This document shows positions 2-42,419 of a DNA stretch of 52,338 nucleotides, one piece after another. This stretch comes from Tubiluchus corallicola. Lineage: Eukaryota; Animalia; Priapulida. Position 1 is the stretch's first letter, and the number at the start of each line of letters is the position of its first letter. A program made the position numbers and the translations under genes. Where the stretch lies: contig JAQGDQ010002415.1 in the NCBI GenBank assembly GCA_030141605.1, forward strand, positions 6,581-58,918, read 5' to 3'. The notes under the pieces are model-generated. The model saw only the letters and a program-made list of their open reading frames with translations, was not told the origin of the DNA and ran no database searches.

Positions 2-2845
2 AGCCCCGCCCATTATATACCCAAACATTTCCCAACCTTTAGCATCATTAGCCTCTCCTATCTTGTAGCCACTATATCCTCCTATTATTGCTCCTACAAC
101 GGCTGCTGCTAAAAATATCCACTCCCCATCAGGATCTACAAACATCATAGGGCTATTGCCCATAGCTTGGTAAGGTGAGTGCATCTGCAAAGCAGGATCT
201 ACTGCAAACCACCTTCCCAAATTAGCATCGTACTGTCGTGCGTGAAAATCGTGCAAGTTAATATTAAAATACTCCAAATGCTCCTTGCCCGTGTAGAGGT
301 ATTGGCTTTTTACATTATCAGGTAGTTCATTTCTACTTAGTTTCTCTATCGTTTGTCCATAAGGGTAGTAAGCCGTTTCTTGTAGCACCTCGCCCTTGTT
401 GTCAGCAACTACTCGTGTATGCCCCAAGTGGTCGGTGAGTAACACTGCCTTTGTGTCCTCTTCCTCACCCTTCAAGGTATAGCCTAAAGGGTTACTCACA
501 AGTACAAGCGTATCATTAATATACAGATACGCACCTTGATAATCGTATTTTAGCAAGAGGCTATCGTTTTTGTTAAATATCTCACGTCTTAAAAGTGAGC
601 CATCCGCTATGTAGGTGTTTACTATCTTTCCTTTGCCTACTACCTCCATTGTATCAGGTAGGTTGATGTCGTTGTAGCTAATACGTAGTCCCTTGTAGCT
701 ATCCTCCACCAAGTTACCCAACTCATCATAAGTATAAGTGCCTAGCACTTCTTCGGGTGTTTGGTCTTTTTCATCGTGCGTTCTGCGTAGGTTCTCTTGT
801 ATGGCAAGGGTGTCTTTTAGGTCTATAATGCCGTCACCATCCGCATCCATATAGCTAAACTGTGGGGTACTGGTAATAGTTGTGTAGGGCTTCCACTCCG
901 TGCCTTGCTCATCTTCGTCCCTTGGGGTGGCTGTGCTTCCATAGTGCAAGCCCAATGGCAATATGTCGGCTGGCTCTACTAAGCCGCTATTGTCCATATC
1001 ACCCGGATATACTGTTATCTTTTGCAGGCTTTTACGGTGTAGAGTGGTGAGTTGGTTGCCCGTGTATTCATACTCCAAATCATCCAAGTCGCCATACACT
1101 TCATTACGTAGATGTCCCTTGCGGTGTAGGGTAGTAATGTTCCCGTGTTTGTCGTAAGAGTAAGCTGTGTTGTAAGTGTTCTCCTCTTTTGTGTCTTGGT
1201 AGTAGATAGCTCTTGTCAGTTGGTTAGCATCGTCATAAGAGAAGGCATAGCCTGATAGGGGTGTGTTTTTGGTCTTCCACTCCATAGCTGTAATGTTGCC
1301 GTTGTACATAGGGGTGTTGCTCATATACTCGTGAGGCTCGTCATACTCTATCCTTTCGTAAAAAAGCTGTTCGTTTTTGTCGTTGTTAGTTTCTATTTGG
1401 GTAAGGCGGTAGTGGAAGTCGTAATGGTAGTTTGTTCTTATTTGTCCTTCATACAGTCGTTCATAGCTTTTGTTGCCTTTTTCATCGTAGCGGTAATAGG
1501 CTATTTCATAGGTGTTTTTGTCTCCCTGCTCTTGGTAGTGGATGGATTTCAACATGTCGTTGTGGTAGTATTGGTAATCCTTACGTGCAAAGTGTTGCTT
1601 GTCAAAGTCTAAGAAGTTTTTGTAGGTAAATAGTTGTCTTACTCTGCCATCGAAATGGTAGTTGGTAAATACTGCGTCTATTCCGCCTATGTTGTTGGAG
1701 GAGAAGGATTGTACTACTCTGTTGTATTTGTCGTAGTATATTACGCTTTCTATCCATTGGTCGGTGCCAAGTATGCGGGTTCGTGTGCCTGTTACTTGTG
1801 TCTTTACGTTGTGATAGGGCTTGCCAAGGGGTTCGTAGGGTGGTGCTGACTGTGCAAAGGGGAAGTCGTAGTCGTCGTAGTGGGTTTCTGATAGGGGTAT
1901 CTTTTTTCCGTCTTTTTTTATGCCTGTGGCTATTACGCGGCTGTAGCGGTCGTAGTCTATGTAGGAGGTGTTGCCTTCTGTGTCTTCTTCTTCTATCAGT
2001 CTGTCTAAGTGGTCGTAGCTAAGGTGTATGGTACCTGCTTGTGGTATGTGTTTGCGGATAAGGCGTCCTTTTTTGTCGTGGATGAATTGATAGACGTAAT
2101 GGTGATTGTTGATATCTCCTTTGGATAGTGGGGGGAGTATGGCGGTAAGGTTGCCATAGTGAAAGTCGTAGTAGTAGAGTGTGGTTAGGGTTTCTTTGTT
2201 TATCTGGCTTTCTCTTTTGAATAGTTGACCTTTGTATGAGGTGTATGTGGTGTGTTGTATGCCTTGAGGGTCGGTGGTACTGACTATGCTTATGTAGCCG
2301 GGGGGGTATTTTTTGTCTTCGTATTTTTCGGTGAATGCGTCATATTCTTTGTGTAGGAAGATGTCGGTGTTGGCGTAGCGTTCAATTTTGGTAGTGTGGT
2401 TTGTGCCTATTTGGTATTTCTGTCCAAAGCCACCTTGTTCTATTACTTGACCGCGTGGGTTGAATATGCTTTGTGCGCTGGGTATGTCTGTGTGGGCTTG
2501 GTTTAGTATGTTTTCCCAGTTGTGTAGGTAGTCGCCTTTGATGTTGAGTTGCATTGGCATATAGCTAAAGGGTTGTCTGCCTGCTATGTCGTATTTATGA
2601 AATTCTATGTGGTCGTTTTGGTAGATGGAGGCGTTCAGGTGGTTGGTTTGTAGGGGGCGGTCGGCTCCATCGGTGTAGATAATGGTGGTTGAGGCTGCTG
2701 CTGGGTTGGTGGTATTGCTTAGCTCATAGGCACTCATCCCTGATACTTTTGCTCGTTTTATGCGCACGTAGTTTTGGTCTCGGCTCTGCGGGTACAGAAC
2801 GCTGCACAAGTGCAGAAAGGCCAAGAGTAAAGCAATGGGTCTCAT
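2..2845 (-). CDS. DUF6443-type Rhs repeat-associated core toxin, 3' end beyond window edge; internal dockerin-like insert
   Basis: Translated by hand from ATG at 2845, no stop seen before the window edge, which explains its absence from the ORF track. Signal peptide MRPIALLLAFLHLCSVLYPQ; DUF6443-like IYTDGADRPLQ and ILPP; YD repeats; YNGNITAMEW; Rhs core LTDHLGHTRV..YYPYG..YLYTGKE..HARQYDANLGRWFAVDP..SPY..GNSPMMFVDPDGE. Confidence 0.93.
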   Translation of the reverse strand, partial: MRPIALLLAFLHLCSVLYPQSRDQNYVRIKRAKVSGMSAYELSNTTNPAAASTTIIYTDGADRPLQTNHLNASIYQNDHIEFHKYDIAGRQPFSYMPMQLNIKGDYLHNWENILNQAHTDIPSAQSIFNPRGQVIEQGGFGQKYQIGTNHTTKIERYANTDIFLHKEYDAFTEKYEDKKYPPGYISIVSTTDPQGIQHTTYTSYKGQLFKRESQINKETLTTLYYYDFHYGNLTAILPPLSKGDINNHHYVYQFIHDKKGRLIRKHIPQAGTIHLSYDHLDRLIEEEDTEGNTSYIDYDRYSRVIATGIKKDGKKIPLSETHYDDYDFPFAQSAPPYEPLGKPYHNVKTQVTGTRTRILGTDQWIESVIYYDKYNRVVQSFSSNNIGGIDAVFTNYHFDGRVRQLFTYKNFLDFDKQHFARKDYQYYHNDMLKSIHYQEQGDKNTYEIAYYRYDEKGNKSYERLYEGQIRTNYHYDFHYRLTQIETNNDKNEQLFYERIEYDEPHEYMSNTPMYNGNITAMEWKTKNTPLSGYAFSYDDANQLTRAIYYQDTKEENTYNTAYSYDKHGNITTLHRKGHLRNEVYGDLDDLEYEYTGNQLTTLHRKSLQKITVYPGDMDNSGLVEPADILPLGLHYGSTATPRDEDEQGTEWKPYTTITSTPQFSYMDADGDGIIDLKDTLAIQENLRRTHDEKDQTPEEVLGTYTYDELGNLVEDSYKGLRISYNDINLPDTMEVVGKGKIVNTYIADGSLLRREIFNKNDSLLLKYDYQGAYLYINDTLVLVSNPLGYTLKGEEEDTKAVLLTDHLGHTRVVADNKGEVLQETAYYPYGQTIEKLSRNELPDNVKSQYLYTGKEHLEYFNINLHDFHARQYDANLGRWFAVDPALQMHSPYQAMGNSPMMFVDPDGEWIFLAAAVVGAIIGGYSGYKIGEANDAKGWEMFGYIMGGA

Positions 2846-2861: not shown

Positions 2862-5123
2862 TTATTTAACTCTCATTATAAAGGCTAATACGTAGTAGGG
2901 AGGTATAATATCAAAATTATCAGTAGTTACTTTGTCTGCTGGCGATTTTAACCCGTCCTCTCCTCCATTGCTTACTCTACCACTAAAAGAACTATTCGGG
3001 TGGGTGTGTCTATCTTCATTATTCTCAGATGTAGTAGTAGCATCTCTGGTTTCATGAACTCCTCTATCAGAGCTCCTGCTACCTCCTGTCTTTCTATTAG
3101 ATGGAGTGGATTCATAAGTATGTGTATGACTCCCTGAAGAGGTTATATGTATACTTGCGTCATTGCCTCTTACAGAATGATGATGTTTAGGAATATGATT
3201 CTTAGATAATCTAAATGTAGCTGTAGAGCTACTGCTGCCTCCTTCTGCATTCACATTGTTATAATCACCACTGGCAGCATCATACGCCACAATAAACCTA
3301 CCACTTAAGTTGGGGGTCGTTATGAGTGAACCATTAATATCCGTGTCTGTTCTACCATCACACAAAGCCCACCCATCAGGTATAGTATTAGGGTCTCCGC
3401 TCCACATTATAATGCCTCCTATGGGTATGGTGCCGTAGCCTACAAATTGTCCTTGTGTTTCAATATTGTCTTCTGCTATTATTTTGCCTTCTGTGGCAAT
3501 ATCATTGGCAGTTTGTATGCTTTCTACAAAAAGGGTATCTACTTCTACATTGGAAGATATTACTCCATCTACCCTTACTACTTCACTTACTATTAATGTA
3601 TCAGCAATAATGCTACTTGTTTCTAAGTTTTCTACTTTCACATAGTTTTGTTCAAAGTCGCCCTCTATGAGTGTGTTGGTTCCACTGCCTATCATTAGTT
3701 TGTTGCTTTCGTTATTTAGGTTCTGCCCTACTTTGTTACCTATTACTATGTTGTTGTAGCCATTGTTCCCTTGTGCTGCTTTGTCTCCTATGTATATATT
3801 GCTACCACCTGTTGTATTGCTTTTGCCTGCTTCGTTGCCAATAAACACATTGCCACTAGCCGACAAGCTATTTAGCCCTGCACGGTAGCCTATAGCTATG
3901 TTGTCATTGTTGGAAGTAGCATCTGGGTTTATACCTTGCAGTGCCTCTGTGCCAATAACTACATTTCGCTCTCCACTGCTTTTTTCGGCTGCTTTGCTAC
4001 CTATCACCACACTATAATTGTTTGCTCCTTCTCGACTAGCGTATTTTCCTATGACTACTGCACCTGTGCTGTTTTTTGCTTTGGATGCTTTACTACCTAC
4101 AATTACATTATCAGAGGATAGTGTATATTTCCCTGCCTCGTCGCCTACAATTACATTGTGTGAGCCAGCGGAATTTAATTGCCCTGCCTCTGTACCTATC
4201 ATTACATTAGAGGTAGAGGCTTGTGTGGTGTTTTGTCCTGCTCTTTTACCTACAAAGGTGTTGCGTTCGCCTTGTTCTCCACTGTTAATCTTTTCTGAGC
4301 CTATCAATACGTTGGTAGTATCTATCTCTATACTGCCTGCTATCATATCTTCTAAGGCTTGATTGTTGAGACGGTAAGGCTCGTTCCACGCTCCATAAGT
4401 AGTATCGCCATTTATATCTATTTCTATAAGGCGCAACTTTGCCCATAGGTCGCCTTCCTTTCGTTCTAAGGTCCAATTAGAAGTAGCCGCACTATCAGGA
4501 GCATACATCTTTTCAACTGAGCAAGGGTCTATGGTTACCTCCAATTTACCATCCACTATTTGCAGTGTATTACCCAATACTACGCCTCCTCTGGTGCTAT
4601 GGCTAGCAATAGGTAGTTCATAATAGTTGGCATTGTTTTCTACCGAAAGTAGTTTGGCCAACAAACTATCAGCAAAGTTATTGTCCGAGTATGTAGCACG
4701 ATGCTCTATGCCTAGTAGCTTTTGATAGAGGCTATCTATAAAGTTATGCTCAGTGTAGTTCAGACTGTCTAACTTGATTTTAAGAACGTAAGTAAAATTT
4801 TCTTCGGAGTACTTAATACTGTCTAACTTTTCTTTGTGAGAAGTTGTGAAGTTGTGGTCGGTTTGTGAGGTGGCTCTTAGGTAGATAACACCTTCGCCTT
4901 GTTGCCCTTGATAGATTTCTAATCCATCCTCGCCTTCTGCTTTTATCTCATAATTGTAGGTAGCATTGATAAGGTCTTTAAAATCCTGTCCATTGGGTTT
5001 ACTACCATCTTGAAACTTGGAGTGTAATTCACTGGGGGTTTTTCTCTCTATTTGAGAATAAGCAGTGGTGTTAAGGAACACAAAAGCAATAGCAACTGCA
5101 AAAAATTTCACTGTATTTTTCAT
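2862..5123 (-). CDS. Secreted phage/eCIS-like tail fibre protein (YadA-like head repeats, tail collar domain, HxH tip)
   Basis: Signal peptide MKNTVKFFAVAIAFVFLNTTAYSQ (ATG 5123); NF..KLxxI repeats; YELPIASHSTRGGV; many N(V/T)xIG repeats; collar IPIGGIIMWSG..IPDGWALCDG..TPNLSGRFI; HxH motifs; terminal PPYYVLAFIMR. Confidence 0.85.
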   Translation of the reverse strand: MKNTVKFFAVAIAFVFLNTTAYSQIERKTPSELHSKFQDGSKPNGQDFKDLINATYNYEIKAEGEDGLEIYQGQQGEGVIYLRATSQTDHNFTTSHKEKLDSIKYSEENFTYVLKIKLDSLNYTEHNFIDSLYQKLLGIEHRATYSDNNFADSLLAKLLSVENNANYYELPIASHSTRGGVVLGNTLQIVDGKLEVTIDPCSVEKMYAPDSAATSNWTLERKEGDLWAKLRLIEIDINGDTTYGAWNEPYRLNNQALEDMIAGSIEIDTTNVLIGSEKINSGEQGERNTFVGKRAGQNTTQASTSNVMIGTEAGQLNSAGSHNVIVGDEAGKYTLSSDNVIVGSKASKAKNSTGAVVIGKYASREGANNYSVVIGSKAAEKSSGERNVVIGTEALQGINPDATSNNDNIAIGYRAGLNSLSASGNVFIGNEAGKSNTTGGSNIYIGDKAAQGNNGYNNIVIGNKVGQNLNNESNKLMIGSGTNTLIEGDFEQNYVKVENLETSSIIADTLIVSEVVRVDGVISSNVEVDTLFVESIQTANDIATEGKIIAEDNIETQGQFVGYGTIPIGGIIMWSGDPNTIPDGWALCDGRTDTDINGSLITTPNLSGRFIVAYDAASGDYNNVNAEGGSSSSTATFRLSKNHIPKHHHSVRGNDASIHITSSGSHTHTYESTPSNRKTGGSRSSDRGVHETRDATTTSENNEDRHTHPNSSFSGRVSNGGEDGLKSPADKVTTDNFDIIPPYYVLAFIMRVK

Positions 5124-5168: not shown

Positions 5169-8100
5169 TCAATTCTCTGTTACATATCTTATATGAAAAG
5201 TAGTGGCAGTATCGTTTCTAATATACATTTGTCCTATTCCTAACTCTTCTATGTCCAAAGGGTCGTAGGAGGCTTTGTAGTTATACTGATATTGTTCCAG
5301 AGCGTCTTCATCTTCGTTTCCTATGTTCGAAAGTCTACCAAAATCGTCATAACCATATTTTATAGTCTGCTCTTGTGAAGAAACTTCTTGTTGCAGTTGT
5401 AGTAGGTTGGTGTATGCATAATTAGAAACATACTTACCTGCATCTACAGAGTGTGTTTTGGGTAGATTACTCGAGGTGTAAGAATAGGAAATAGGCACGG
5501 CATCTTTACCAGTATATTTCAGTATGTTGCCTTTGTTGTCGTATTGGTTGAAGGTGGTTTGTAACTCATAATTATCTGCAAGGGTATTGTAAGTTTCTAT
5601 GCTTTCTACAATGTAGTCAGGGTCTTCATTGCTTCCTAATACATAGTTGATTTTTTGTCCTGATAGGAGTTTCCCGTTTTTTCTTATCTCTTGCTGTACT
5701 GGGGCAATAATATGCTTGTCCTCAAAGTATTGTTTTATAGGCTGATTGCTCTGATGCACATAAGTAATAGAAGTTTCTGTGGTCTCTACATTATCACTGG
5801 CAATTACTTTTACAGGTAGGTTTTTGTATTTACTGTATTTTTCATATTCATAGGTGGTAGTGGTAGTGATAGGCTGCCTTGCACTTTCGGCATAATCTTC
5901 GCGAATAGTCCCTTCCAAAGTTTTAGTAACTGCAGCTATATCATAGGTGCTATGACGTAAAAGATTATCATTTTTATCTATCTGTACATTGTAGCCTCCA
6001 ACAGAGTTGCTCCATTTTAAACTATAATTGTTAGAAGTTTTATTGAGTAAGTTATCTTTATTGTCATAAGTTTCTTGTTGATAGAGATAAGTCCTATACA
6101 CATCTCTGTCTGTAATGGTAGAAAAAAGCAGGTAGTAAGAACTAGAAGGATCTTGGCCTGCTATTACATCAGGTTTATTGTCTTCATCTTTGGCTGTTTT
6201 AAAGTAAGAAATAGTTTTGCCTTGTTCTTTGTTTGTCTGCATTACCTTGCCAAAACCTACTATACCCCCGCCTGTGGCTAACTGTTCGCCTCCGCCCTTA
6301 GGATAAAGTAAATAATGATAATAGTCCCAAAAACGTCCAACCTCATACTTTCTATTTCTGTTGAAAGGTATAATACCTTCCTCATAGTTATAAGTTATTT
6401 CTTCCATTACCTCTCCTTTTTCGTCATCCGTAGCTTTTATATTTTTTATAAAACAACCATATTCACTAGTATAGTAGTCGAAGGTTTTGTGCATTCCTGT
6501 AGGGTAGGTAATGGAGGAAAGCAAACCATTCTCTATATTGTTAAGCGAAGGGGCATAATTATATTCTTCGTACTCGTTTATACCCTCGAATTTTACTCTT
6601 AACATTTCCTTTAACGATGATGAATATTCTATATTCCGTTCTTCATTTTTTTCATTGCTGTCTATATCTAGCTCACTGGGGTATGTAAAGTTGTAAAAAG
6701 TAGATTTAGGACTTGTAAAATCTACATAGTAACCATAAAAATTCTGTTTGTAAGAAAGTCTATAAGGTAGTTTACTAGGGTTAATGTAATTAAATTTAAA
6801 AGGATTGATATTATCTCCATAGATGTCTTTCTCCTCTATTTCTGTAAGGAACATCCTTTGTGTAGTACCTGCTTGTTCTATAAAGAAACTACCACTGTGC
6901 CATGCATTTGTTTTAAAACGAAATGCAGGCGAGGAGGTAGTAACAGAATTATGATAATTATAAGTAAATGTATAGCTTTTAATAAAATCATCATCTTTCG
7001 TTTTTATACGTATTTCTCTAAGAAAACTACCTACCTCATCTATCATATCTTTTCTGTTTTCTACTGTAAAGAATTCTACTTTGTGGTTGCCTCCTTCTAC
7101 CTCTTGCAACATAGGGGTATGGGCTGTAACCAAACTTTTAGCAATTCCTATTTCATTACGAGGAACTGGGGACTCATATCTGTAAAACTTATTATCCTCT
7201 ATTTTGGGATAAGAATTCTGAATACAAACACCTGACAGCCTACTGCCTTGATAATACCGACTTGTTTGTTTTTTATAAGAAAAGGTTACTTTATCATTAA
7301 AAGCAGGTTGTATTATCTCTATTAAATGCCAAGAGGACCTATAACTATACGATTGACTACTATTGATTACACGTTTTTCCTGCAAATCCAAAGAATAAGC
7401 GGGAATTTTCTTGATTACTATCCCCAGAAAATTTCTCTTCCAAATTTCCTCAAACTTTGAAGTATAACGTACAATTTCACTTGTATTTTCTATTTCCATC
7501 TCTTCTATGGCTTCTTCTTCATAGCCAAATCTGTAAATAGTGCCATCTTCGGCAGTAATAGTAAAGCCATTAATGGTTGAAGAAGAAGCATCCATCTCTA
7601 TTTTCAGGTTGTTATCGTTGGCAAGAATATTAATTCTGTTAGAAGCGGCTCTTCTGCTAATAGTGAATTTACCGTTTAAGTTGCCACAAGAAAAATAAAA
7701 TATATCAGGGTGGAGATCGTTATCTTTCATTTCTTCGACTGATGCCCAATTATCCCAATAGCCTATCTTTTCTTTTGTTTCATTTTTACTATCTACTACA
7801 CCGTCATTATTATCTTCAATAATAGATTTTACTTGGGTTGTTTTCTCATCGGGGTAGCCTTTTACTACACGAGTAATCACTCCGCTTGCTTGTAAGTTCC
7901 ATCCCATACCTACCCAAGAAGCTAGGTCATCTACTCTTACTCCGTTGGAATGATACACCAAGCTAATGGGCACGGATAGGTGGGTACTTTTCAGGGTGTA
8001 CAAAGGAATGCCTACATTAATAGCTCCTGTGTAAAGGCTAGAGGCGGTAGAGGCAGAACGTATCAGCCCTGCTACTGTGGGTGAGGGTACAGTAACCAAA

Positions 8101-8342
8101 CTACTACTACCAGACAAGGCTCCGAACTCGTCACTGCTCATTGAAGTAGGAACACCTTTATGTAAGGATTTTAACATCAAATGACTGGTAGTATCTTCTT
8201 CTGCTGCTGTATCTTCCTGTTCAGCTGGAAGATAGGGCTGGGCAGAAGTCAAGCTAAAAGAGAAAAGAAAAAAGAAAAAAACACTCTTTCCTCTCCCATA
8301 GATACAAAATAAAGACAAAAATATAAATGCAAGTGTTTTCAT
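5169..8342 (-). CDS. YD/Rhs-repeat shell protein without toxin core (TcB-like partner of DUF6443 Rhs proteins)
   Basis: PSPTVAGL..SLYTGAINVGIPLYTL..VPISLVYHSNGVRVDDLASWVGMGWNLQASGVITRVVKGYPDE, PDIFYFS, LSSITYPTG, YDNKGNI, YGYDDFGRL; no DPxG core motif. Confidence 0.85.
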   Translation of the reverse strand: MKTLAFIFLSLFCIYGRGKSVFFFFLFSFSLTSAQPYLPAEQEDTAAEEDTTSHLMLKSLHKGVPTSMSSDEFGALSGSSSLVTVPSPTVAGLIRSASTASSLYTGAINVGIPLYTLKSTHLSVPISLVYHSNGVRVDDLASWVGMGWNLQASGVITRVVKGYPDEKTTQVKSIIEDNNDGVVDSKNETKEKIGYWDNWASVEEMKDNDLHPDIFYFSCGNLNGKFTISRRAASNRINILANDNNLKIEMDASSSTINGFTITAEDGTIYRFGYEEEAIEEMEIENTSEIVRYTSKFEEIWKRNFLGIVIKKIPAYSLDLQEKRVINSSQSYSYRSSWHLIEIIQPAFNDKVTFSYKKQTSRYYQGSRLSGVCIQNSYPKIEDNKFYRYESPVPRNEIGIAKSLVTAHTPMLQEVEGGNHKVEFFTVENRKDMIDEVGSFLREIRIKTKDDDFIKSYTFTYNYHNSVTTSSPAFRFKTNAWHSGSFFIEQAGTTQRMFLTEIEEKDIYGDNINPFKFNYINPSKLPYRLSYKQNFYGYYVDFTSPKSTFYNFTYPSELDIDSNEKNEERNIEYSSSLKEMLRVKFEGINEYEEYNYAPSLNNIENGLLSSITYPTGMHKTFDYYTSEYGCFIKNIKATDDEKGEVMEEITYNYEEGIIPFNRNRKYEVGRFWDYYHYLLYPKGGGEQLATGGGIVGFGKVMQTNKEQGKTISYFKTAKDEDNKPDVIAGQDPSSSYYLLFSTITDRDVYRTYLYQQETYDNKDNLLNKTSNNYSLKWSNSVGGYNVQIDKNDNLLRHSTYDIAAVTKTLEGTIREDYAESARQPITTTTTYEYEKYSKYKNLPVKVIASDNVETTETSITYVHQSNQPIKQYFEDKHIIAPVQQEIRKNGKLLSGQKINYVLGSNEDPDYIVESIETYNTLADNYELQTTFNQYDNKGNILKYTGKDAVPISYSYTSSNLPKTHSVDAGKYVSNYAYTNLLQLQQEVSSQEQTIKYGYDDFGRLSNIGNEDEDALEQYQYNYKASYDPLDIEELGIGQMYIRNDTATTFHIRYVTEN

Positions 8343-8355
8343 TTGTTAAAACCTC

Positions 8356-9130
8356 TTAGTTTAAGATAATTTTCTTACTGACAATAAAATCATTATAGAC
8401 CGTTTGTATCAAATAAATACCTTTGGGAAGAAAAGATAAATCAAAAGTAGCTATATCTTTTTTGGGTACGGTGGTTCGCACCACAGACCCCTCCTCTCAT
8501 TGCTCTAACTTCTACTATCTCTTTTTCTACCCCGTATTCATATTTGATATTTACAATACCATTTGTAGGGTTAGGATAAAGTATAAATTGATATAGCTCA
8601 GTGTTTTTCGAAAGGTGTTTCAAAGAATATTCGCCTATGTAAATAGTATCGGAAGTAGAAAGAAGAGGAATGGCTTCTCCTTTGTGATTGTTTGCCATAT
8701 AAGGATGAGCAGACACAGAGATAAAGTCCTTGGTTAAACCCTCTTTTATCTTTACAAAAAGAGAGAGTACATTTTCTTTACTGTCTAAAAAAAAGTTCTC
8801 ATTCAAACCTGTAACAGCATAACGCAGCAGCCCTTCACTTTGATTTTGTTGATATAGGTCAATATAATCCTTGCCTCGCTCTCCAAAAGTGCTGCCTGTG
8901 GAAAGTGCAATAGAATTAGTGTCCAAGTCCTGTGGGTTATAACGAATGTCAAAAGCTATACCATAAAGAAGTTCTATATTATCTTGAGGGTAGAAATTAA
9001 AAACCACCACCTCATCCAAACGCTCACGAGATAAAACAGGAGTAGGAGTTTCTACTTTTAGCAGCTCTTGCGAGAAAACAGAACAATTTAATAGAAAGAA
9101 AGATATTAAATTTAAGCAAAATAATCTCAT
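8356..9130 (-). CDS. Cohesin-like domain protein with T9SS type-A C-terminal domain, frameshifted at about 8488-8491 (pseudogene or sequencing error)
   Basis: Likely start MRLFCLNLISFFLLNCSVFSQ (ATG 9130); LYGIAFDIRYNP..GLLRYAVT cohesin-like beta-sandwich; CTD begins FILYPNPTNGIVNI and continues in the shifted frame as ..FDLSFLPKGIYLIQTVYNDFIVSKKIILN* (stop 8356-8358). Confidence 0.75.
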
Positions 9131-9394
9131 AAGACTAAAAGATTTTAAGAAATTAGGTGTAAAATATCTTAACTTAAAAAACACAAGTTTACATAAAAAA
9201 ACTCTTTTGTACAAAAAAATATATTAAGAATTAGCAATATATTCTAAGTAGTTTAAAACCATCCTTAAATTCAGTTACTGCTAAGTACAATACAAGTTTT
9301 AGAAACTTTCATCTTTTAGTTTTTGGCAATAAAAATAGGCAATGAATGAAAAATTAAATATTAGTATACCATTACCTTATTTTGTTATAAAGAC

Positions 9395-15331: not shown

Positions 15332-16927
15332 ATGAGAAGAACAGCATTTATAGTAGCAAGTGTCCTTTTATTCGCTTCTTGTAAAAAAGACAGTGAAGGG
15401 AACAGTATGCCACCAGTCAATAATAAAGAAGGAACATATTATATAGATAATGTAAACGGAGATAATAATAACACAGGAGAATCTCCCGAAAAAGCGTGGA
15501 AAACAATAACAAATATGAATAGGCTTACTTTTCAGCCGGGGGATAAAATATTGCTAAAAGCAGGAGGAGTTTGGGATGGAGTTATTGCCCCAAAAGGAAA
15601 AGGAGAAAAAGACAACCCCATTGTGATAGATATGTATGGAGAAGGTGAAAAACCCCTCTTAAATGGTAACGGCAGACATCCCTTTACTGTTAGGCTACAA
15701 GACATTGAGTATTTTGAATTGAAAAATTTAAGGATTACCAACAAAGGAGAAGAAAGAGCAGAAAAAGGTGTGTTGAGAGTAGGAGTTCACATTATAGCAG
15801 AGGATATGGGAGAAGTTAATCATATTCACCTAAAAGGCTTGGAAATATATGATGTAAATGGTTTTTACGGAGTTTCTGGCGATGACTTCAACGCAGGCAA
15901 AGAAAACGGAGGTATACTCATTGAAATAAAAGGAAGCGAGAAACCCACTTATTTTAATGGTTTGGTCGTAGAAGACTGCCACATACACAATGTAGAGCAA
16001 TCGGGTATGACCAATAAATCCTCTTGGTCGAGCAGAACCTTTACCGATGATGGTGATTGGACACCTAGCCTTAATGTAGTAATACGCGGCAATCGCTTTG
16101 AAAAAATAGGAGGCAACGGACTGATACTAAGAGTTGCGAAATCTCCTCTGATAGAAAACAATCTGTTCGATAGTTGTGGTTTGTTTACCACAGGCAATGC
16201 CAGCTTTTCGTTCAACACAGACGACGCCCTTTGGCAATACAATGAAGCTCGCTTTACACACAATACGGGCGAAGATGTAGATGCTGGTGGGTTCGATAGT
16301 GATTATCGCTCAAAAGGAACTATCTTTCAATACAACTACTCTCACGATAACGAACACGGGGGCATACTTATAACGGGTGGACCCTCCAACCTTACTACCG
16401 CACCATTTAATGATGGAACTATCGTCAGATACAATGTATTTGCTAATAACAAAGCCCACATTGTTCGCACATCAGGATTGGCTACTAACACTCTTATACA
16501 TAATAATGTGTTTTATACGGATGCTACTTTAGAAGATAAGATGGACTTAGGAATGGTTTATCATAAAAGTTGGAGTGGAACTTCTGACAATACAGAATAT
16601 TACAACAATATTTTTTACTCAGAAGTGGCTTGCGACCTCTTTAACAATGAAGGTAATAGCACTAACAATACATTTGACAATAATATATTTTACTACGAAA
16701 ATGGAGGAGGCACTGAGATACCCACAGGCAATGACAATATACAAGAAGACCCTTTATTTAGCTTTGGCTTTGGTTTAGAAGGAGCATTTAGATTTCAACT
16801 AAACGAAGGCTCACCCGCTATTGATGCAGGGAAGGAAATACCAGACAATGTGCTAAAAGATTATGCAGGTAACACTGTGCCTGTTGATGTTATTGACATA
16901 GGTGCTTTTGAAAAGAAAAAGCAATAA
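15332..16927 (+). CDS. Lipoprotein with right-handed parallel beta-helix (putative polysaccharide lyase/hydrolase)
   Basis: Lipobox FASC-KKD; YYIDNVNGDNNNTGESPEKAWKTI; PGDKILLK; DAGGFDSDY..QYNYSHDN; SPAIDAG..DIGAFE. Confidence 0.8.
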   Translation: MRRTAFIVASVLLFASCKKDSEGNSMPPVNNKEGTYYIDNVNGDNNNTGESPEKAWKTITNMNRLTFQPGDKILLKAGGVWDGVIAPKGKGEKDNPIVIDMYGEGEKPLLNGNGRHPFTVRLQDIEYFELKNLRITNKGEERAEKGVLRVGVHIIAEDMGEVNHIHLKGLEIYDVNGFYGVSGDDFNAGKENGGILIEIKGSEKPTYFNGLVVEDCHIHNVEQSGMTNKSSWSSRTFTDDGDWTPSLNVVIRGNRFEKIGGNGLILRVAKSPLIENNLFDSCGLFTTGNASFSFNTDDALWQYNEARFTHNTGEDVDAGGFDSDYRSKGTIFQYNYSHDNEHGGILITGGPSNLTTAPFNDGTIVRYNVFANNKAHIVRTSGLATNTLIHNNVFYTDATLEDKMDLGMVYHKSWSGTSDNTEYYNNIFYSEVACDLFNNEGNSTNNTFDNNIFYYENGGGTEIPTGNDNIQEDPLFSFGFGLEGAFRFQLNEGSPAIDAGKEIPDNVLKDYAGNTVPVDVIDIGAFEKKKQ

Positions 16928-16959
16928 ATGTTTATATAGAAACAAAAAAATAAAGAATT

Positions 16960-18531
16960 ATGAAAAGTATAAAATTGTATTTATCATTATGCAGTCTATT
17001 TGTTACACTTATTTTAAGTTGTGAAAAAGAAGACGACTTTACCAATCCACCCAACCCCGGTGAGCCTAACATTACTAAGTTTGCAACAACAATAGATGAA
17101 GAAACAGGTCAAGTAGTTTTTAGCTTTGGTGGTGAGAATATCCATCTTTACAAACTATATTTTGGTGATGCAGAAAGCACAGAAGAAACCTCCGAAGGCG
17201 AAGAGTTAGAATTTACTTACAGCGATTTAAAAAACATCGCTTATGAAGCTATGTTAATAGGCTATGGCCCTCGCACCAAAGACACTGCCCGCACAGCAAT
17301 AGATGTAACCATAGGCACTCCCGAAGATGTGAAAGTAGAAACAGAGGTGGCAGAAACAGGAGGAGTTAAATTTACACTTACAGGAAACTATGTAGTTTCG
17401 TACCACATAGACTTTGGCGATGAAGAGGACACCTCTATTACTGAAATAGCAGACCCAACAGTAGTTAAACACATCTATGCAAATGCAGGAACATATACAG
17501 CAAAAATAACAGCCCATGGACGTGAAGGTAATGTAGACACAACTGTCTCTATTAAAATAGAAGAAATAAAAGATACTCCAAAAAACCTTTTTGCCTCTGC
17601 TGTATCTAACGAAGCAGGAATTGCTACACTTACACTTAAGGGAGATTATGTTGTTCGTTATGAAATAGACTGGAGAGATGATAGCGGTACAGAAATAGTA
17701 GATGACTCAGAAGACTCAATAACTATTACTCATTTATACAAAGAAGATGGAGATTATGACATAACAATAAACGCTTTTGGCTCAAACGAAGAGTCCATTG
17801 AATTCTCCATTGATGATCCATTAAATATAAACATTACTTATGTACCACTAGGTTTCTATGCACATTGGGCAGAGCCGGAAAATGTTGCTCCTTTCGATAT
17901 AAATAGAACAACGAATAGTGATGGTATTTTAGGTGTAATAGAGGGAGTACTTAGTGGTAGTGGTGCTATGTTTACTGATAGAAGCCTTGATGACAAAGGT
18001 ATACCTCGCTACGATCCTAATGATGATAAATGTGTAAGGATAACAACACCTTCTCAAGGTGGTCCAAATGCTCTACTTTTTAAATTATATGGACACTCAT
18101 TACTTGAGCCTTTTGGAGGAAAACTAAATTTGAAATATCAAAACAAATTTAAATTATTAGTTCATGCCTTTAGGAAAGATTCCAATGAAGGAACTGGAGA
18201 AGATCCTCCTCACAGAGTAAGATTGGTGTTGCAAAATAGGGGTGATAATATTGGAGATGTGTGGGATGATGAAATATATGTAGAAAAAAAATGGGATGAA
18301 AATGATCAATGGTTTGATTTAGAGTTTGACTTTTCTGACGATAGTGGCGAGTGGGTAAATGCAGATGGAAGTAACACCAAACCTTCTGAAAGAACAGATT
18401 TAGATTGTATTGCAATATACTTTTATCAAGACGGCACGGCAGCAAGACATAGAGTCCACTTTGACAAATTGGAATTATTAAATGTAGACGGCACGTCTAA
18501 TTTTGATTACAGAATACCGAATATTCCTTAA
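16960..18531 (+). CDS. Surface glycan-binding lipoprotein with three PKD-like domains
   Basis: Lipobox ILSC-EKEDD; repeats YKLYFGD, YHIDFGD..HIYANAGTY, YEIDWRD..HLYKEDGDY; lies downstream of susD. Confidence 0.7.
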   Translation: MKSIKLYLSLCSLFVTLILSCEKEDDFTNPPNPGEPNITKFATTIDEETGQVVFSFGGENIHLYKLYFGDAESTEETSEGEELEFTYSDLKNIAYEAMLIGYGPRTKDTARTAIDVTIGTPEDVKVETEVAETGGVKFTLTGNYVVSYHIDFGDEEDTSITEIADPTVVKHIYANAGTYTAKITAHGREGNVDTTVSIKIEEIKDTPKNLFASAVSNEAGIATLTLKGDYVVRYEIDWRDDSGTEIVDDSEDSITITHLYKEDGDYDITINAFGSNEESIEFSIDDPLNINITYVPLGFYAHWAEPENVAPFDINRTTNSDGILGVIEGVLSGSGAMFTDRSLDDKGIPRYDPNDDKCVRITTPSQGGPNALLFKLYGHSLLEPFGGKLNLKYQNKFKLLVHAFRKDSNEGTGEDPPHRVRLVLQNRGDNIGDVWDDEIYVEKKWDENDQWFDLEFDFSDDSGEWVNADGSNTKPSERTDLDCIAIYFYQDGTAARHRVHFDKLELLNVDGTSNFDYRIPNIP

Positions 18532-40118: not shown

Positions 40119-42350
40119 TTATAAGAAAAGTATTTTAGTTACAGCTTTTTCTTGTCCATCGTGGTCTACCACATAGATAAGGTATATTCCAGAAGTTATC
40201 CTTTGTCCACTTTGCTTGCACCCATTCCACGTAGCCTGTCCACCAAGCGAAACAGTCTCATAAACAAGGTTGCCATTAATATTTGTAATTTTCACATTGG
40301 TGTTTTCCTTCAAGCCAGTTATAGTTATTAGCCCTTCATAGTTTTCCCTTACGGGGTTAGGAAAAGCAAATATATCGTTATAACTAGATTTCGGCTCAAT
40401 GGCTTCTCCTCTGTATGAGGTTATACCATATGCTGTGGCTATGAATATTTCCCCAGTATTAGAATCTATAGCAATATCTTTAATATCATTAGAGGGCAAT
40501 GGGCTATTTTGTATATTAAAGTGTTCTAACTGTTTTTTTCCATCACCTGACATAAGGTATACGCCTGAATTTCTCGTGCCAAAACACTTTCTATCAGCAC
40601 CATCTATAGCTATGGAGCTTACTATCTCCATTTCCAAAAGATAGCCAAATGTTCCATCATCATTTGACACAGATACCTTTTCTGCATAAGTGCCTCCTAA
40701 GGCTAACATCTCATAGGGGTGAAAATAGGTTAGCACTCCATTTTCTGTACCAAGCCATAAAATACCCTTTTTGTCCTGTTGCAAAGAGTAGACCTTGTTA
40801 GTCAAAACACCTCCCCCCTCTCCTCTTACTTTAGTCCTAATATATTCATCATCCGATTCTGTTTGCAAGGTAGCCCTATCATTAAATATAAATAATTCGT
40901 CCCCATCATTTAATACTATCCATTTATCGTCATTGGCAGTATTTATCATTCTCCCAAAACTATCATTATTGTTCAAAATATTATAATTATAGGCATACCA
41001 TTGCTTGTTCGGAGTTTTTATTCCTATAGGAGTTGCACTATTAGAGTTTGTTACCCACAAATTGCCGTCCGTATCATAGGTCATACTACCTACCTGCAAC
41101 ATTCCATTGATAGATGGCTCTAAGGGGGTATTAGTTTCATCCCACCTTGTTTTTGTCTGGTTATTTTGCAACTCTAAAATACTGGTTTTGGCTGAAATAT
41201 ATAAATCATCGTTTTGGGGCAAAATATCTACTATATTACTTATTTCTGGATATTGGTAATCAGTCCATTGTTCGTTTTCAAAAATCGAAAATATATTGTT
41301 ATTATTCGATATTACATATATCCTATCATCATAATATTTCAAATTTGCAGTACTATGCCGAGCAGGTGCATTGGGCTGTACAAATTGGGGCGTATTATCA
41401 AGCACTGATAGCTTTATCAATCCCTGCACACTATCAGCAATCCAAACAAACTCAGTATCATTCTGCTTGGCATCGACAGGTACTCCCTCGTAGGTACTCT
41501 TATAGATAACCCTATCATTAGCATCTATCAGCAACACTATATCATCCGCACAAACAATAAGATTTTCCACACCCGTTTCTATGGCTTTTACACTATTATA
41601 TATAGTAGTTGAAGTAGTCCAAGTGTTGTTTTGATAAATATAAACAGTATCCTTATCACCTACTACTCCATTAGCGTACACTTTATTATTAAAACAGGTA
41701 ACTATATTAAAAGTATCATTGGGATTTGGTATTGCAATATCTTTTTTCCACTCGTTGAAATCAGCCAAATTAGAATTGTTTATACTACCCACATAAATAC
41801 CTTCGCTGGTAGCTGCATAAATATTTTTATCAACAGAGCAATAAGCAATATCAAATAGTTGTAGAGCATTGTCTTCTTGGGTAAAATAATAGGTATCCTT
41901 TACCTCGCTCCTTTCCAAATCTAACAAAACTATTCCAAAATTAAAAGCCACATATACCACTCCTTCTATATATACAACCGTTTGAGGTTTTACTTCTTTT
42001 ATATTACTTAATACAATATCAGGAATATTATCTATTGTTTTATCTGTAACAACATCTATATTACCATTCTCATACACTACTATCAAAACATCCGAAGAGG
42101 CAATGTATTTTACCACCTCTATTTTATGCTCTGTTAAACCCTCTACTTTTGATAGAGTATTAATAGTATTATCAACAACATTGTAGTACAGCAAACCTCC
42201 TTCTGCCAAATAATATATTTTATTTCTGCCCACTTCTATTTGCTTCCCCTCATCATAATTAAAATGATTTCGCCATTCCTTCACTCCTATTTGCGAAAAA
42301 ACAATAGCTGACAACAACAGTAATCCTACAAGTAATAAGCTCCTTTTCAC
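40119..42350 (-). CDS. porZ: PorZ-like T9SS beta-propeller protein with CTD
   Basis: Probable GTG start at 42350 giving a signal peptide; WRNHF, TLSKVEGL, YENGNID, IAIDGADRK, NSPLPSNDI, FAFPNPVRENYEGLITITGL..NVKIT..GGQATWNG. Confidence 0.85.
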   Translation of the reverse strand: MKRSLLLVGLLLLSAIVFSQIGVKEWRNHFNYDEGKQIEVGRNKIYYLAEGGLLYYNVVDNTINTLSKVEGLTEHKIEVVKYIASSDVLIVVYENGNIDVVTDKTIDNIPDIVLSNIKEVKPQTVVYIEGVVYVAFNFGIVLLDLERSEVKDTYYFTQEDNALQLFDIAYCSVDKNIYAATSEGIYVGSINNSNLADFNEWKKDIAIPNPNDTFNIVTCFNNKVYANGVVGDKDTVYIYQNNTWTTSTTIYNSVKAIETGVENLIVCADDIVLLIDANDRVIYKSTYEGVPVDAKQNDTEFVWIADSVQGLIKLSVLDNTPQFVQPNAPARHSTANLKYYDDRIYVISNNNNIFSIFENEQWTDYQYPEISNIVDILPQNDDLYISAKTSILELQNNQTKTRWDETNTPLEPSINGMLQVGSMTYDTDGNLWVTNSNSATPIGIKTPNKQWYAYNYNILNNNDSFGRMINTANDDKWIVLNDGDELFIFNDRATLQTESDDEYIRTKVRGEGGGVLTNKVYSLQQDKKGILWLGTENGVLTYFHPYEMLALGGTYAEKVSVSNDDGTFGYLLEMEIVSSIAIDGADRKCFGTRNSGVYLMSGDGKKQLEHFNIQNSPLPSNDIKDIAIDSNTGEIFIATAYGITSYRGEAIEPKSSYNDIFAFPNPVRENYEGLITITGLKENTNVKITNINGNLVYETVSLGGQATWNGCKQSGQRITSGIYLIYVVDHDGQEKAVTKILFL

Positions 42351-42381
42351 TTCAATTAGTGTTTCATATATAAATAACATA

Positions 42382-42419
42382 GGGGATATATCCTCCCTCT
42401 TCACTTAGGACGTATCCCC
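42382..42419 (-). terminator. GC-rich hairpin between rdgB and porZ
   Basis: GGGGATATATCCT / AGGACGTATCCCC inverted repeat, 11 of 13 positions complementary. Confidence 0.45.

What the first reader, a model, noticed from the sequence alone, without database searches (positions are those of the whole stretch)
2862..5123. Phage-type tail fibre with a signal peptide, inserted between the two Rhs shell genes
Phage and eCIS fibres normally assemble in the cytoplasm and lack signal peptides. This one has a clear Sec signal and an unusual domain chain: shoulder motif, four NF..KL repeats (about 4580-4860), LPIAS..GGV fibre repeat, a long YadA-like NVxIG beta-roll, collar, and metal-binding HxH tip. 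No capsid, sheath or tube genes are nearby, pointing to a domesticated fibre used as the targeting or adhesion subunit.
Basis: partly seen in the sequence, partly recalled or inferred. Interest (0 to 1): 0.72.

Follow-up and report, generated by a model that had tools for sequence, protein, structure and literature searches.

The report
Fibre-guided Rhs toxin capsule
This marine-type Bacteroidota gene encodes a phage-style tail fibre with a predicted export signal, which likely clips onto the neighbouring toxin-carrying protein shell through a docking pair resembling that of bacterial injection syringes, and would aim the shell at target cells without any syringe.

Summary
Confirmed. The 753-aa ORF (2862-5123, minus strand) has a signal-peptide-like N-terminus, helical repeats, 12 NxxIG repeats, a phage collar and a His-rich tip. 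Its first mature domain is not a 'shoulder' but an eBAP1/2-type helical anchor, the part by which eCIS fibres (Pvc13, Afp13, Cis13) bind the baseplate. All nine related bacterial loci found lie in a T9SS-adaptor, fibre, Rhs arrangement (one is cut off before the Rhs); none is a prophage. New here: the upstream TcB-like shell gene ends in a LGIGxM..F peptide, kept at the same junction in 6 of 6 fused relatives and present in only 3 of 171 other Rhs proteins. Similar peptides end the genes upstream of anchor genes in 5 of 7 eCIS-type loci. Other Rhs shells carry BACON, PKD or DUF5977 modules in this slot. Best reading: the fibre trimer docks on this peptide and aims the capsule. Binding is untested (complex prediction unavailable), the peptide homology is weak by score, and the relatives are one family. 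Ten paper searches found no description. The scan noted exported collar fibres elsewhere (e1-4705437), but not this system.

The parts
2862..5123 (-). Fibre gene, 753 aa (P0001)
5055..5123 (-). Predicted Sec signal peptide, aa 1-23, followed by Gln
   Evidence: composition and conservation, no SignalP
4947..5036 (-). eBAP1/2-type helical anchor (LxxxFxxGxxPxxxxFxxLI), aa 30-59
   Evidence: profile from Rhs-locus fibres hits 9qgo E 0.007, AfpX13 8uur 0.023, 8on5 0.56, Cis13 7b5h 1.5; eCIS and prophage genes at E 8e-7 to 1e-2 per genome
4650..4853 (-). Four NF..KL helical repeats (stalk); anchor-to-neck length varies from 135 to 504 aa among relatives
4338..4622 (-). LPIAS..GGV repeat and conserved neck domain
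3678..4322 (-). 12 NxxIG-type repeats, predicted beta-roll
   Evidence: (pLDDT 70-84 in its second half)
3288..3437 (-). Phage tail collar domain
2901..3287 (-). His-rich variable tip with three HxH sites; least conserved part
   Evidence: weak Foldseek top hits T4 gp12 and gp37 tip
2865..2900 (-). C-terminal PYYxLAFIMRVK strand shared with collar-type fibres
5169..8342 (-). Rhs-A, TcB-like half shell with a signal-peptide-like N-terminus (P0002)
   Evidence: model pTM 0.74; Foldseek TcdB2/YenB E about 1e-16, TM up to 0.43
5187..5243 (-). C-terminal LGIGxM..F peptide of Rhs-A, the proposed fibre docking site
   Evidence: unstructured in the monomer model, pLDDT about 30
2..2845 (-). Rhs-B: DUF6443, YD repeats, RHS core and start of a glycine-rich hydrophobic cargo; cut by the window edge
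746..1033 (-). Dockerin-like insert in Rhs-B
   Evidence: Dockerin_1 E 0.014 here; above cut-off in L001 and L002, below in L032; motif in 6 of 6 fused Rhs
8356..9130 (-). Cohesin-like protein with a T9SS C-terminal signal; the end of the signal is in another frame in the window, probably an assembly error

Best explanation
The gene encodes a predicted Sec-exported tail-fibre trimer that likely docks, through its eCIS-type N-terminal anchor, on a short GIGxM..F peptide at the end of the TcB-like Rhs-A half shell, and would act as the target-binding arm of a BC-type Rhs toxin capsule. Shown: the anchor is homologous to eCIS fibre anchors; the peptide sits right after the last YD repeat; peptide and fibre co-occur in every informative locus; Rhs-A folds like TcB; Rhs-B has an RHS core. 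Inferred: trimer formation, anchor-peptide binding, assembly after Sec export, tethering or T9SS passage through a cohesin-dockerin link to the upstream T9SS protein, receptor binding by the tip, and release of the cargo, whose glycine-rich hydrophobic start would help it cross a membrane. The target is most likely another bacterium, since small immunity-like genes follow the complete relatives.
For: (1) Anchor homology. In eCIS this domain binds the C-terminal region of Pvc12 (PMC12546770, passages) or the C-terminal extension of Cis11 (PMC8894136, passages). (2) 5 of 7 genes directly upstream of anchor genes in eCIS-type loci end in a GI....IG..F.I-like peptide within their last 14 residues, and 2 prophage-like loci carry it in a small LysM-like gene; Baseplate_J was confirmed for 2 of the 3 upstream genes tested. 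(3) The peptide is in window Rhs-A, P0085 and 6 of 6 fused Rhs that reach the junction, but in only 3 of 171 other Rhs proteins. (4) Family scan of 97 genomes: 5 of 30 Rhs-A ends carry the whole motif, all 6.5-8.1 kb downstream of a fibre anchor; none of the other 25 has an anchor hit within 500 kb. Phylum sample of 401 genomes: 1 of 66, the centre genome. Five motif-less loci read in full have no anchor fibre beside the Rhs genes. (5) The slot is an accessory slot: 20 of 31 other Rhs-A tails carry DUF5977, BACON, PKD or Ig_7 there. (6) Tips diverge most: mean identity 0.40 against 0.64-0.76 for the other parts. (7) Signal-like leader only on Rhs-linked anchors, 9 of 9 against 0 of 16. (8) An HMM trained on seven non-Rhs peptides ranks five Rhs junctions first among 53,665 residues.
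Against: No binding test was obtained. The reverse HMM (Rhs-only training) scored eCIS and prophage peptides at most 1.7 bits, below the shuffle mean of 2.2; only positional enrichment remains (3 of the top 15 hits in the predefined tails, binomial p about 1e-5). The forward training set was picked by eye with the Rhs motif in mind, and it missed the window's own peptide, which has a 4-residue insertion. The Rhs motif profile hit no PDB chain at E 10. 2 of 7 eCIS-type upstream genes lack a clear motif, and 3 anchor genes in G032 are orphans. Four of the five co-occurring family genomes were in the training alignments, and all named relatives are Marinifilaceae, so shared descent explains part of the pattern; the neighbours of P0085 and P0234 are unknown. 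The fibre has no T9SS signal by Pfam, so its route across the outer membrane is unexplained. The cohesin hit is weak (E 0.03) and absent in the 2 relatives tested. The window's cargo is cut off, and 3 relatives' cargos match no Pfam family.
Confidence: 0.62

Rival explanations
1. The fibre docks on the shell, but the complex stays tethered to the producer's surface by the T9SS cohesin adaptor and works mainly as a contact-dependent grappling adhesin (prey, surface or host), toxin delivery being secondary.
For: Dockerin-like insert in 6 of 6 fused Rhs and a T9SS-signal gene upstream in 8 of 9 loci, with a truncated piece in the ninth. Fibre length varies from 753 to 1552 aa.
Against: RHS core and cleavage-type motif are intact. 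Complete relatives end in differing C-termini followed by small immunity-like genes.
Confidence: 0.15
2. The fibre is a co-transcribed but physically independent secreted adhesin; the GIG peptide is a linker or binds something else.
For: Peptide homology is not significant in the reverse test. Other Bacteroidota Rhs loci have unrelated signal-bearing proteins with weak tail-protein hits nearby (L041), and exported collar fibres were noted in non-Rhs clusters (e1-4705437, unchecked).
Against: Peptide and anchor fibre co-occur without exception in the loci read. The anchor is conserved (65% among relatives) although no baseplate gene is nearby, and the peptide persists as a free C-terminal tail in the split genes.
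Confidence: 0.17
3. A prophage or eCIS remnant that inserted between the Rhs genes and has no role in the system.
For: Anchor, repeats and collar all occur in phage and eCIS proteins.
Against: Intact frame, acquired leader, host-like GC3 (0.33 against about 0.30), and linkage kept under two gene orders and in both split and fused shells.
Confidence: 0.04

Closest known systems
eCIS tail fibres with eBAP1/eBAP2 anchors (Pvc13, Afp13, Cis13; PMC12923769)
   Same: N-terminal helical anchor, collar and needle-like tip; partner peptide resembles baseplate C-termini.
   Different: Signal-peptide-like leader; no sheath, tube, spike or baseplate in the loci; sits with an Rhs shell. The eBAP catalogue searched eCIS loci and has 0 occurrences of 'Rhs' in its main text.
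BC component of ABC/Tc toxins (TcdB2-TccC3, YenB-YenC2)
   Same: Rhs-A folds like TcB; Rhs-B has the RHS core; split or fused two-part shell.
   Different: No TcA-like gene seen in the loci; shorter B half (1057 aa against about 1450); signal peptides; targeting apparently by a fibre.
Sec-exported and TcdB/TcaC-type polymorphic Rhs toxins (Zhang et al. 2012, PMC3482391)
   Same: Signal peptide plus RHS repeats; that paper's table lists tail-fibre repeats within such toxin proteins.
   Different: Here the fibre is a separate gene with a docking anchor; the paper has 0 occurrences of 'collar' or 'dockerin' in the text held.
Bacteroidota YD-repeat plus DUF6443 Rhs gene pairs
   Same: Same two-gene shell; common (66 ends in 44 of 401 genomes).
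   Different: Most Rhs-A chains end at the last YD repeat (111 of 148) or carry fused modules; the peptide-plus-fibre solution is rare.
T4 gp12/gp37 tips and C24 protein (PDB 6ov6)
   Same: Collar and His-rich tip.
   Different: Not in a phage; different N-terminal anchor and an export leader.

Membership tests
eCIS (PVC/Afp/tCIS) tail fibre | N-terminal eBAP anchor | tested here: met
   eBAP1 versus eBAP2 not resolved, as the paper's profiles were not used
eCIS (PVC/Afp/tCIS) tail fibre | Encoded with sheath, tube, spike and baseplate genes | tested here: not met
   window, one side only; relatives
eCIS (PVC/Afp/tCIS) tail fibre | Cytoplasmic assembly, no export signal | tested here: not met
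eCIS (PVC/Afp/tCIS) tail fibre | Homotrimer bound to a baseplate C-terminal segment | not tested
Phage collar-type tail fibre | Collar domain and His-rich tip | tested here: met
   below cut-off; relative above cut-off
Phage collar-type tail fibre | Lies in a phage or prophage tail module | tested here: not met
Trimeric autotransporter (YadA-like) | YadA head repeats and C-terminal membrane-anchor barrel | tested here: not met
   no YadA family at E 0.1; the C-terminus is a collar-fibre strand
T9SS cargo (the fibre itself) | C-terminal T9SS sorting domain | tested here: not met
   the upstream adaptor has one
ABC/Tc toxin | TcB-like plus TcC-like shell | tested here: met
ABC/Tc toxin | TcA pentameric injector gene | tested here: inconclusive
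   none seen in the window or within 10 kb in relatives; whole genomes were not searched for TcA
Polymorphic Rhs toxin system | RHS core, variable C-terminal cargo, downstream immunity gene | tested here: inconclusive
   core met; window cargo cut off; relatives have differing ends and small downstream genes but no Pfam toxin match
Cohesin-dockerin pair | Dockerin and cohesin domains in linked genes | tested here: inconclusive
   dockerin above cut-off in 2 of 3 relatives tested; cohesin E 0.03 in the window only

The most novel reading that the evidence does not exclude
A previously undescribed delivery architecture: a Sec-exported, T9SS-tethered Rhs capsule that took over the fibre-anchor and baseplate-peptide pair of contractile injection systems as a plug-in aiming arm. 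It would be a three-part, syringe-free toxin machine (cohesin-T9SS adaptor, BC-type shell, variable-tip fibre) showing that a roughly 15-residue peptide is a portable fibre socket.
Probability: 0.5. Interest if true: 0.88.

Novelty: new variant of a known kind. Interest (0 to 1): 0.77.

Why it matters
How Rhs and BC-type shells that lack TcA, VgrG or PAAR find a target is an open question (my own knowledge of the field). This locus offers a concrete, testable answer: a separate fibre clipped on by a short peptide, in the slot where other Bacteroidota shells fuse binding domains. It would extend eBAP anchors beyond injection systems, define their minimal partner, show a phage-type fibre assembling after Sec export, and suggest how T9SS moves cargo that lacks its own signal.

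Tried and rejected
ESM Atlas was unreachable. No whole genome is held for the window. Single-sequence PDB searches with the peptide and the anchor gave nothing relevant, and the peptide profile hit nothing. The fibre monomer model was poor (pLDDT 50, pTM 0.38) and its PDB Foldseek had no hit at E 0.001; the T4 gp12/gp37 rows are only leads. The reverse motif HMM was not significant by score. My first regex for Rhs-A ends failed and was replaced by a profile; the cargo comparison located only one cargo, so cargo divergence was judged by eye. AlgoCIS Alg19 'shoulder' was rejected as the match: it is TssK/RBP-like (bioRxiv 10.1101/2025.10.08.681156 and PMC8894135, passages). YadA-type autotransporter rejected. 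No RNA holder was listed. The runs laid are one sample and may be the window's source. Similar-sequence and place look-ups in earlier scan notes were empty. The Afp12 C-terminal region has only a partial look-alike of the peptide, about 45 residues from its end.

Full report
Observation. The ORF at 2862-5123 (minus strand, 753 aa) lies between Rhs-A (5169-8342) and Rhs-B (2-2845) with gaps of 45 and 16 bp. It begins with a basic, hydrophobic leader ending AYS-Q24, then has four NF..KL repeats (4650-4853), 12 NxxIG-type repeats and three HxH sites. It has a collar (PF07484, below cut-off; PDB 6ov6 and 9nxk) and PHROGs tail or virion matches.

The anchor. A profile of aa 29-78 from the window and eight related loci hits 9qgo (E 0.007), AfpX13 (0.023), 8on5 (0.56) and tCIS Cis13 (1.5), with two unrelated chains among the six hits. 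Genome scans with it recover eCIS mini-fibres and prophage fibres. PMC12923769 (passages) calls these roughly 50-aa helical domains eBAP1/2, places eBAP2 in Bacteroidota, and reserves 'shoulder' for eBAP3-5. PMC12546770 (passages) shows Pvc13 aa 29-55 bound to the C-terminal region of Pvc12. PMC8894136 (passages) says the C-terminal extension of Cis11 contacts the Cis13 trimer. The anchor follows a hydrophobic leader in 9 of 9 Rhs-linked loci and in 0 of 16 other anchor genes.

Relatives. Only 2 of 80 hits in the first protein search cover half the protein, and 6 of 150 listed representatives carry the anchor. Those with names are Ancylomarina and Labilibaculum. Locus scans gave five genome loci, three metagenome loci and two viral loci that match only the repeat region; a family scan added one more. 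In these nine bacterial loci the order is T9SS-signal protein (intact in 8, a 136-aa piece in L006), fibre, Rhs. Six hold a long fused Rhs whose halves match window Rhs-A and Rhs-B (for five, for L032), two are cut within the A half, and one ends in the fibre. None shows phage genes. In cultured phages 0 of 24 matching records cover 80% of the query.

The peptide. Window Rhs-A continues past its last YD repeat with LGIGQM..F; its closest homologue P0085 ends the same way, and the other 52 hits do not. The same peptide sits inside the fused Rhs proteins at the A/B junction in 6 of 6. Among 171 Rhs proteins from two searches only 3 have it (proteins over 2000 aa were outside the second search). 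In 97 family genomes, 5 of 30 Rhs-A ends match the whole motif, each 6.5-8.1 kb downstream of a fibre anchor; four of these five were in the training set. None of the other 25 has an anchor hit within 500 kb. In 401 phylum genomes only the centre genome's end of 66 has it, with at most 15 candidates scored per genome. Five motif-less loci read in full lack an anchor fibre beside the Rhs genes.

Where the peptide may come from. In 5 of 7 eCIS-type loci the gene just upstream of the anchor gene ends in a similar peptide, and two prophage-like loci carry one in a small LysM-like gene. Baseplate_J was confirmed for two of three upstream genes tested. An HMM trained on those seven peptides ranks five Rhs junctions first among 98 ORFs (E 7e-4 to 0.16) and P0085 first among 53, but misses the window's peptide, which has an insertion; the training set was chosen by eye. 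The reverse test was not significant by score (best 1.7 bits, shuffle mean 2.2), though 3 of its top 15 hits fall in the predefined tails (p about 1e-5). The homology is therefore suggestive, not proven.

The slot. Of 148 A-type chains, 111 end at the last YD repeat, 1 has the short peptide and 36 have longer tails. Of 31 tails scanned (five fused or misplaced rows left out), 12 carry DUF5977, 6 BACON, 1 PKD and 1 Ig_7. The window's tail is unstructured in the Rhs-A model (pLDDT about 30; few alignment rows there could also cause this), while the body folds like TcdB2/YenB (pTM 0.74; Foldseek E about 1e-16). Fibre tips are the most divergent part among seven relatives (0.40 against 0.64-0.76), as expected of a receptor-binding end.

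Third part. Rhs-B holds a dockerin-like insert found in all six fused relatives, and the upstream T9SS-signal gene has a weak cohesin match. In the window that gene's last part is in another frame; a contig of run X1 has a small indel there, so the break is probably an assembly error.

Mechanism. Shown: domain anatomy, anchor homology, gene linkage, peptide co-occurrence and shell fold. Inferred: all chains cross the inner membrane by Sec; A and B close into a shell around the cargo; the fibre trimerises and grips the peptide at the seam; the cohesin-dockerin link ties the complex to a T9SS substrate; the tip binds the target and the cargo is released. How a large shell and a fibre without a T9SS signal cross the outer membrane is unexplained. 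Confidence 0.62; rivals are a tethered adhesin (0.15), an independent adhesin (0.17) and a remnant (0.04).

Novelty. Ten searches of the held library (listings and abstracts seen) found no paper on this arrangement, and 'DUF6443' occurs in none. Zhang 2012 (PMC3482391, passages) lists tail-fibre repeats inside Sec-exported Rhs toxins, not a separate docking fibre. Subscription journals are mostly missing from the library, and no supplements were read; the eBAP catalogue's supplements could list such genes. One earlier scan note (e1-4705437, unchecked) describes exported collar fibres in another Bacteroidota gene cluster. Verdict: a new variant of Rhs/BC-type toxin systems; it works like an eCIS fibre but is not an eCIS member. 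Interest 0.77.

Noticed in passing
window 2-2845: Rhs-B has GC3 0.51 against about 0.30 for host genes, and contigs over it show about 3-4 times the summed depth and many variant letters. This hints at several Rhs-B paralogues sharing one A chain and fibre; contig depth is not a copy number.
   Followed up: partly
window 8356-9130 and 746-1033: Cohesin-like T9SS protein and dockerin-like insert in Rhs-B, a candidate tether conserved across the relatives; the window's frameshift near 8490 is probably an assembly error.
   Followed up: partly
window 9194-9199: Contigs of runs X1 and X2 leave the window here on both sides with 255 or more other letters not found in the window: probably an insertion upstream of the adaptor gene in part of the population.
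   Followed up: partly
L041:14004-18001; L044:3164-4099 and 16335-17177: Motif-less Rhs loci have tandem signal-bearing proteins ending in a shared LLQKVEELTLY-type coiled segment; two have weak PHROGs tail hits. Possibly a second, unrelated kind of fibre recruited to Rhs pairs.
   Followed up: partly
L029:4162-19991; L040:9310-15126: Prophage-like regions carry the GIG-like peptide in a small LysM-like gene and three tandem anchor-bearing fibre genes, so a prophage is as possible a donor of the pair as an eCIS.
   Followed up: partly
L019, L025, L027 (G032): Three orphan anchor genes of 245-291 aa without a leader and without visible eCIS neighbours.
   Followed up: no
L003:13397-13774, L005:5196-5573, L006:12282-13595: Short ORFs have inserted between the fibre and Rhs genes in three relatives; they look like mobile or accessory genes (recalled resemblance, not tested).
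   Followed up: no
window 9465-40016: Large polysaccharide-utilisation locus: LacI, two SusC/SusD pairs, two alginate-lyase-family genes, GH88, GH2, CBM96, UxuA; one GH2 appears split at about 33330.
   Followed up: no
window 40119-42404: PorZ homologue, indicating that the organism has a T9SS.
   Followed up: no
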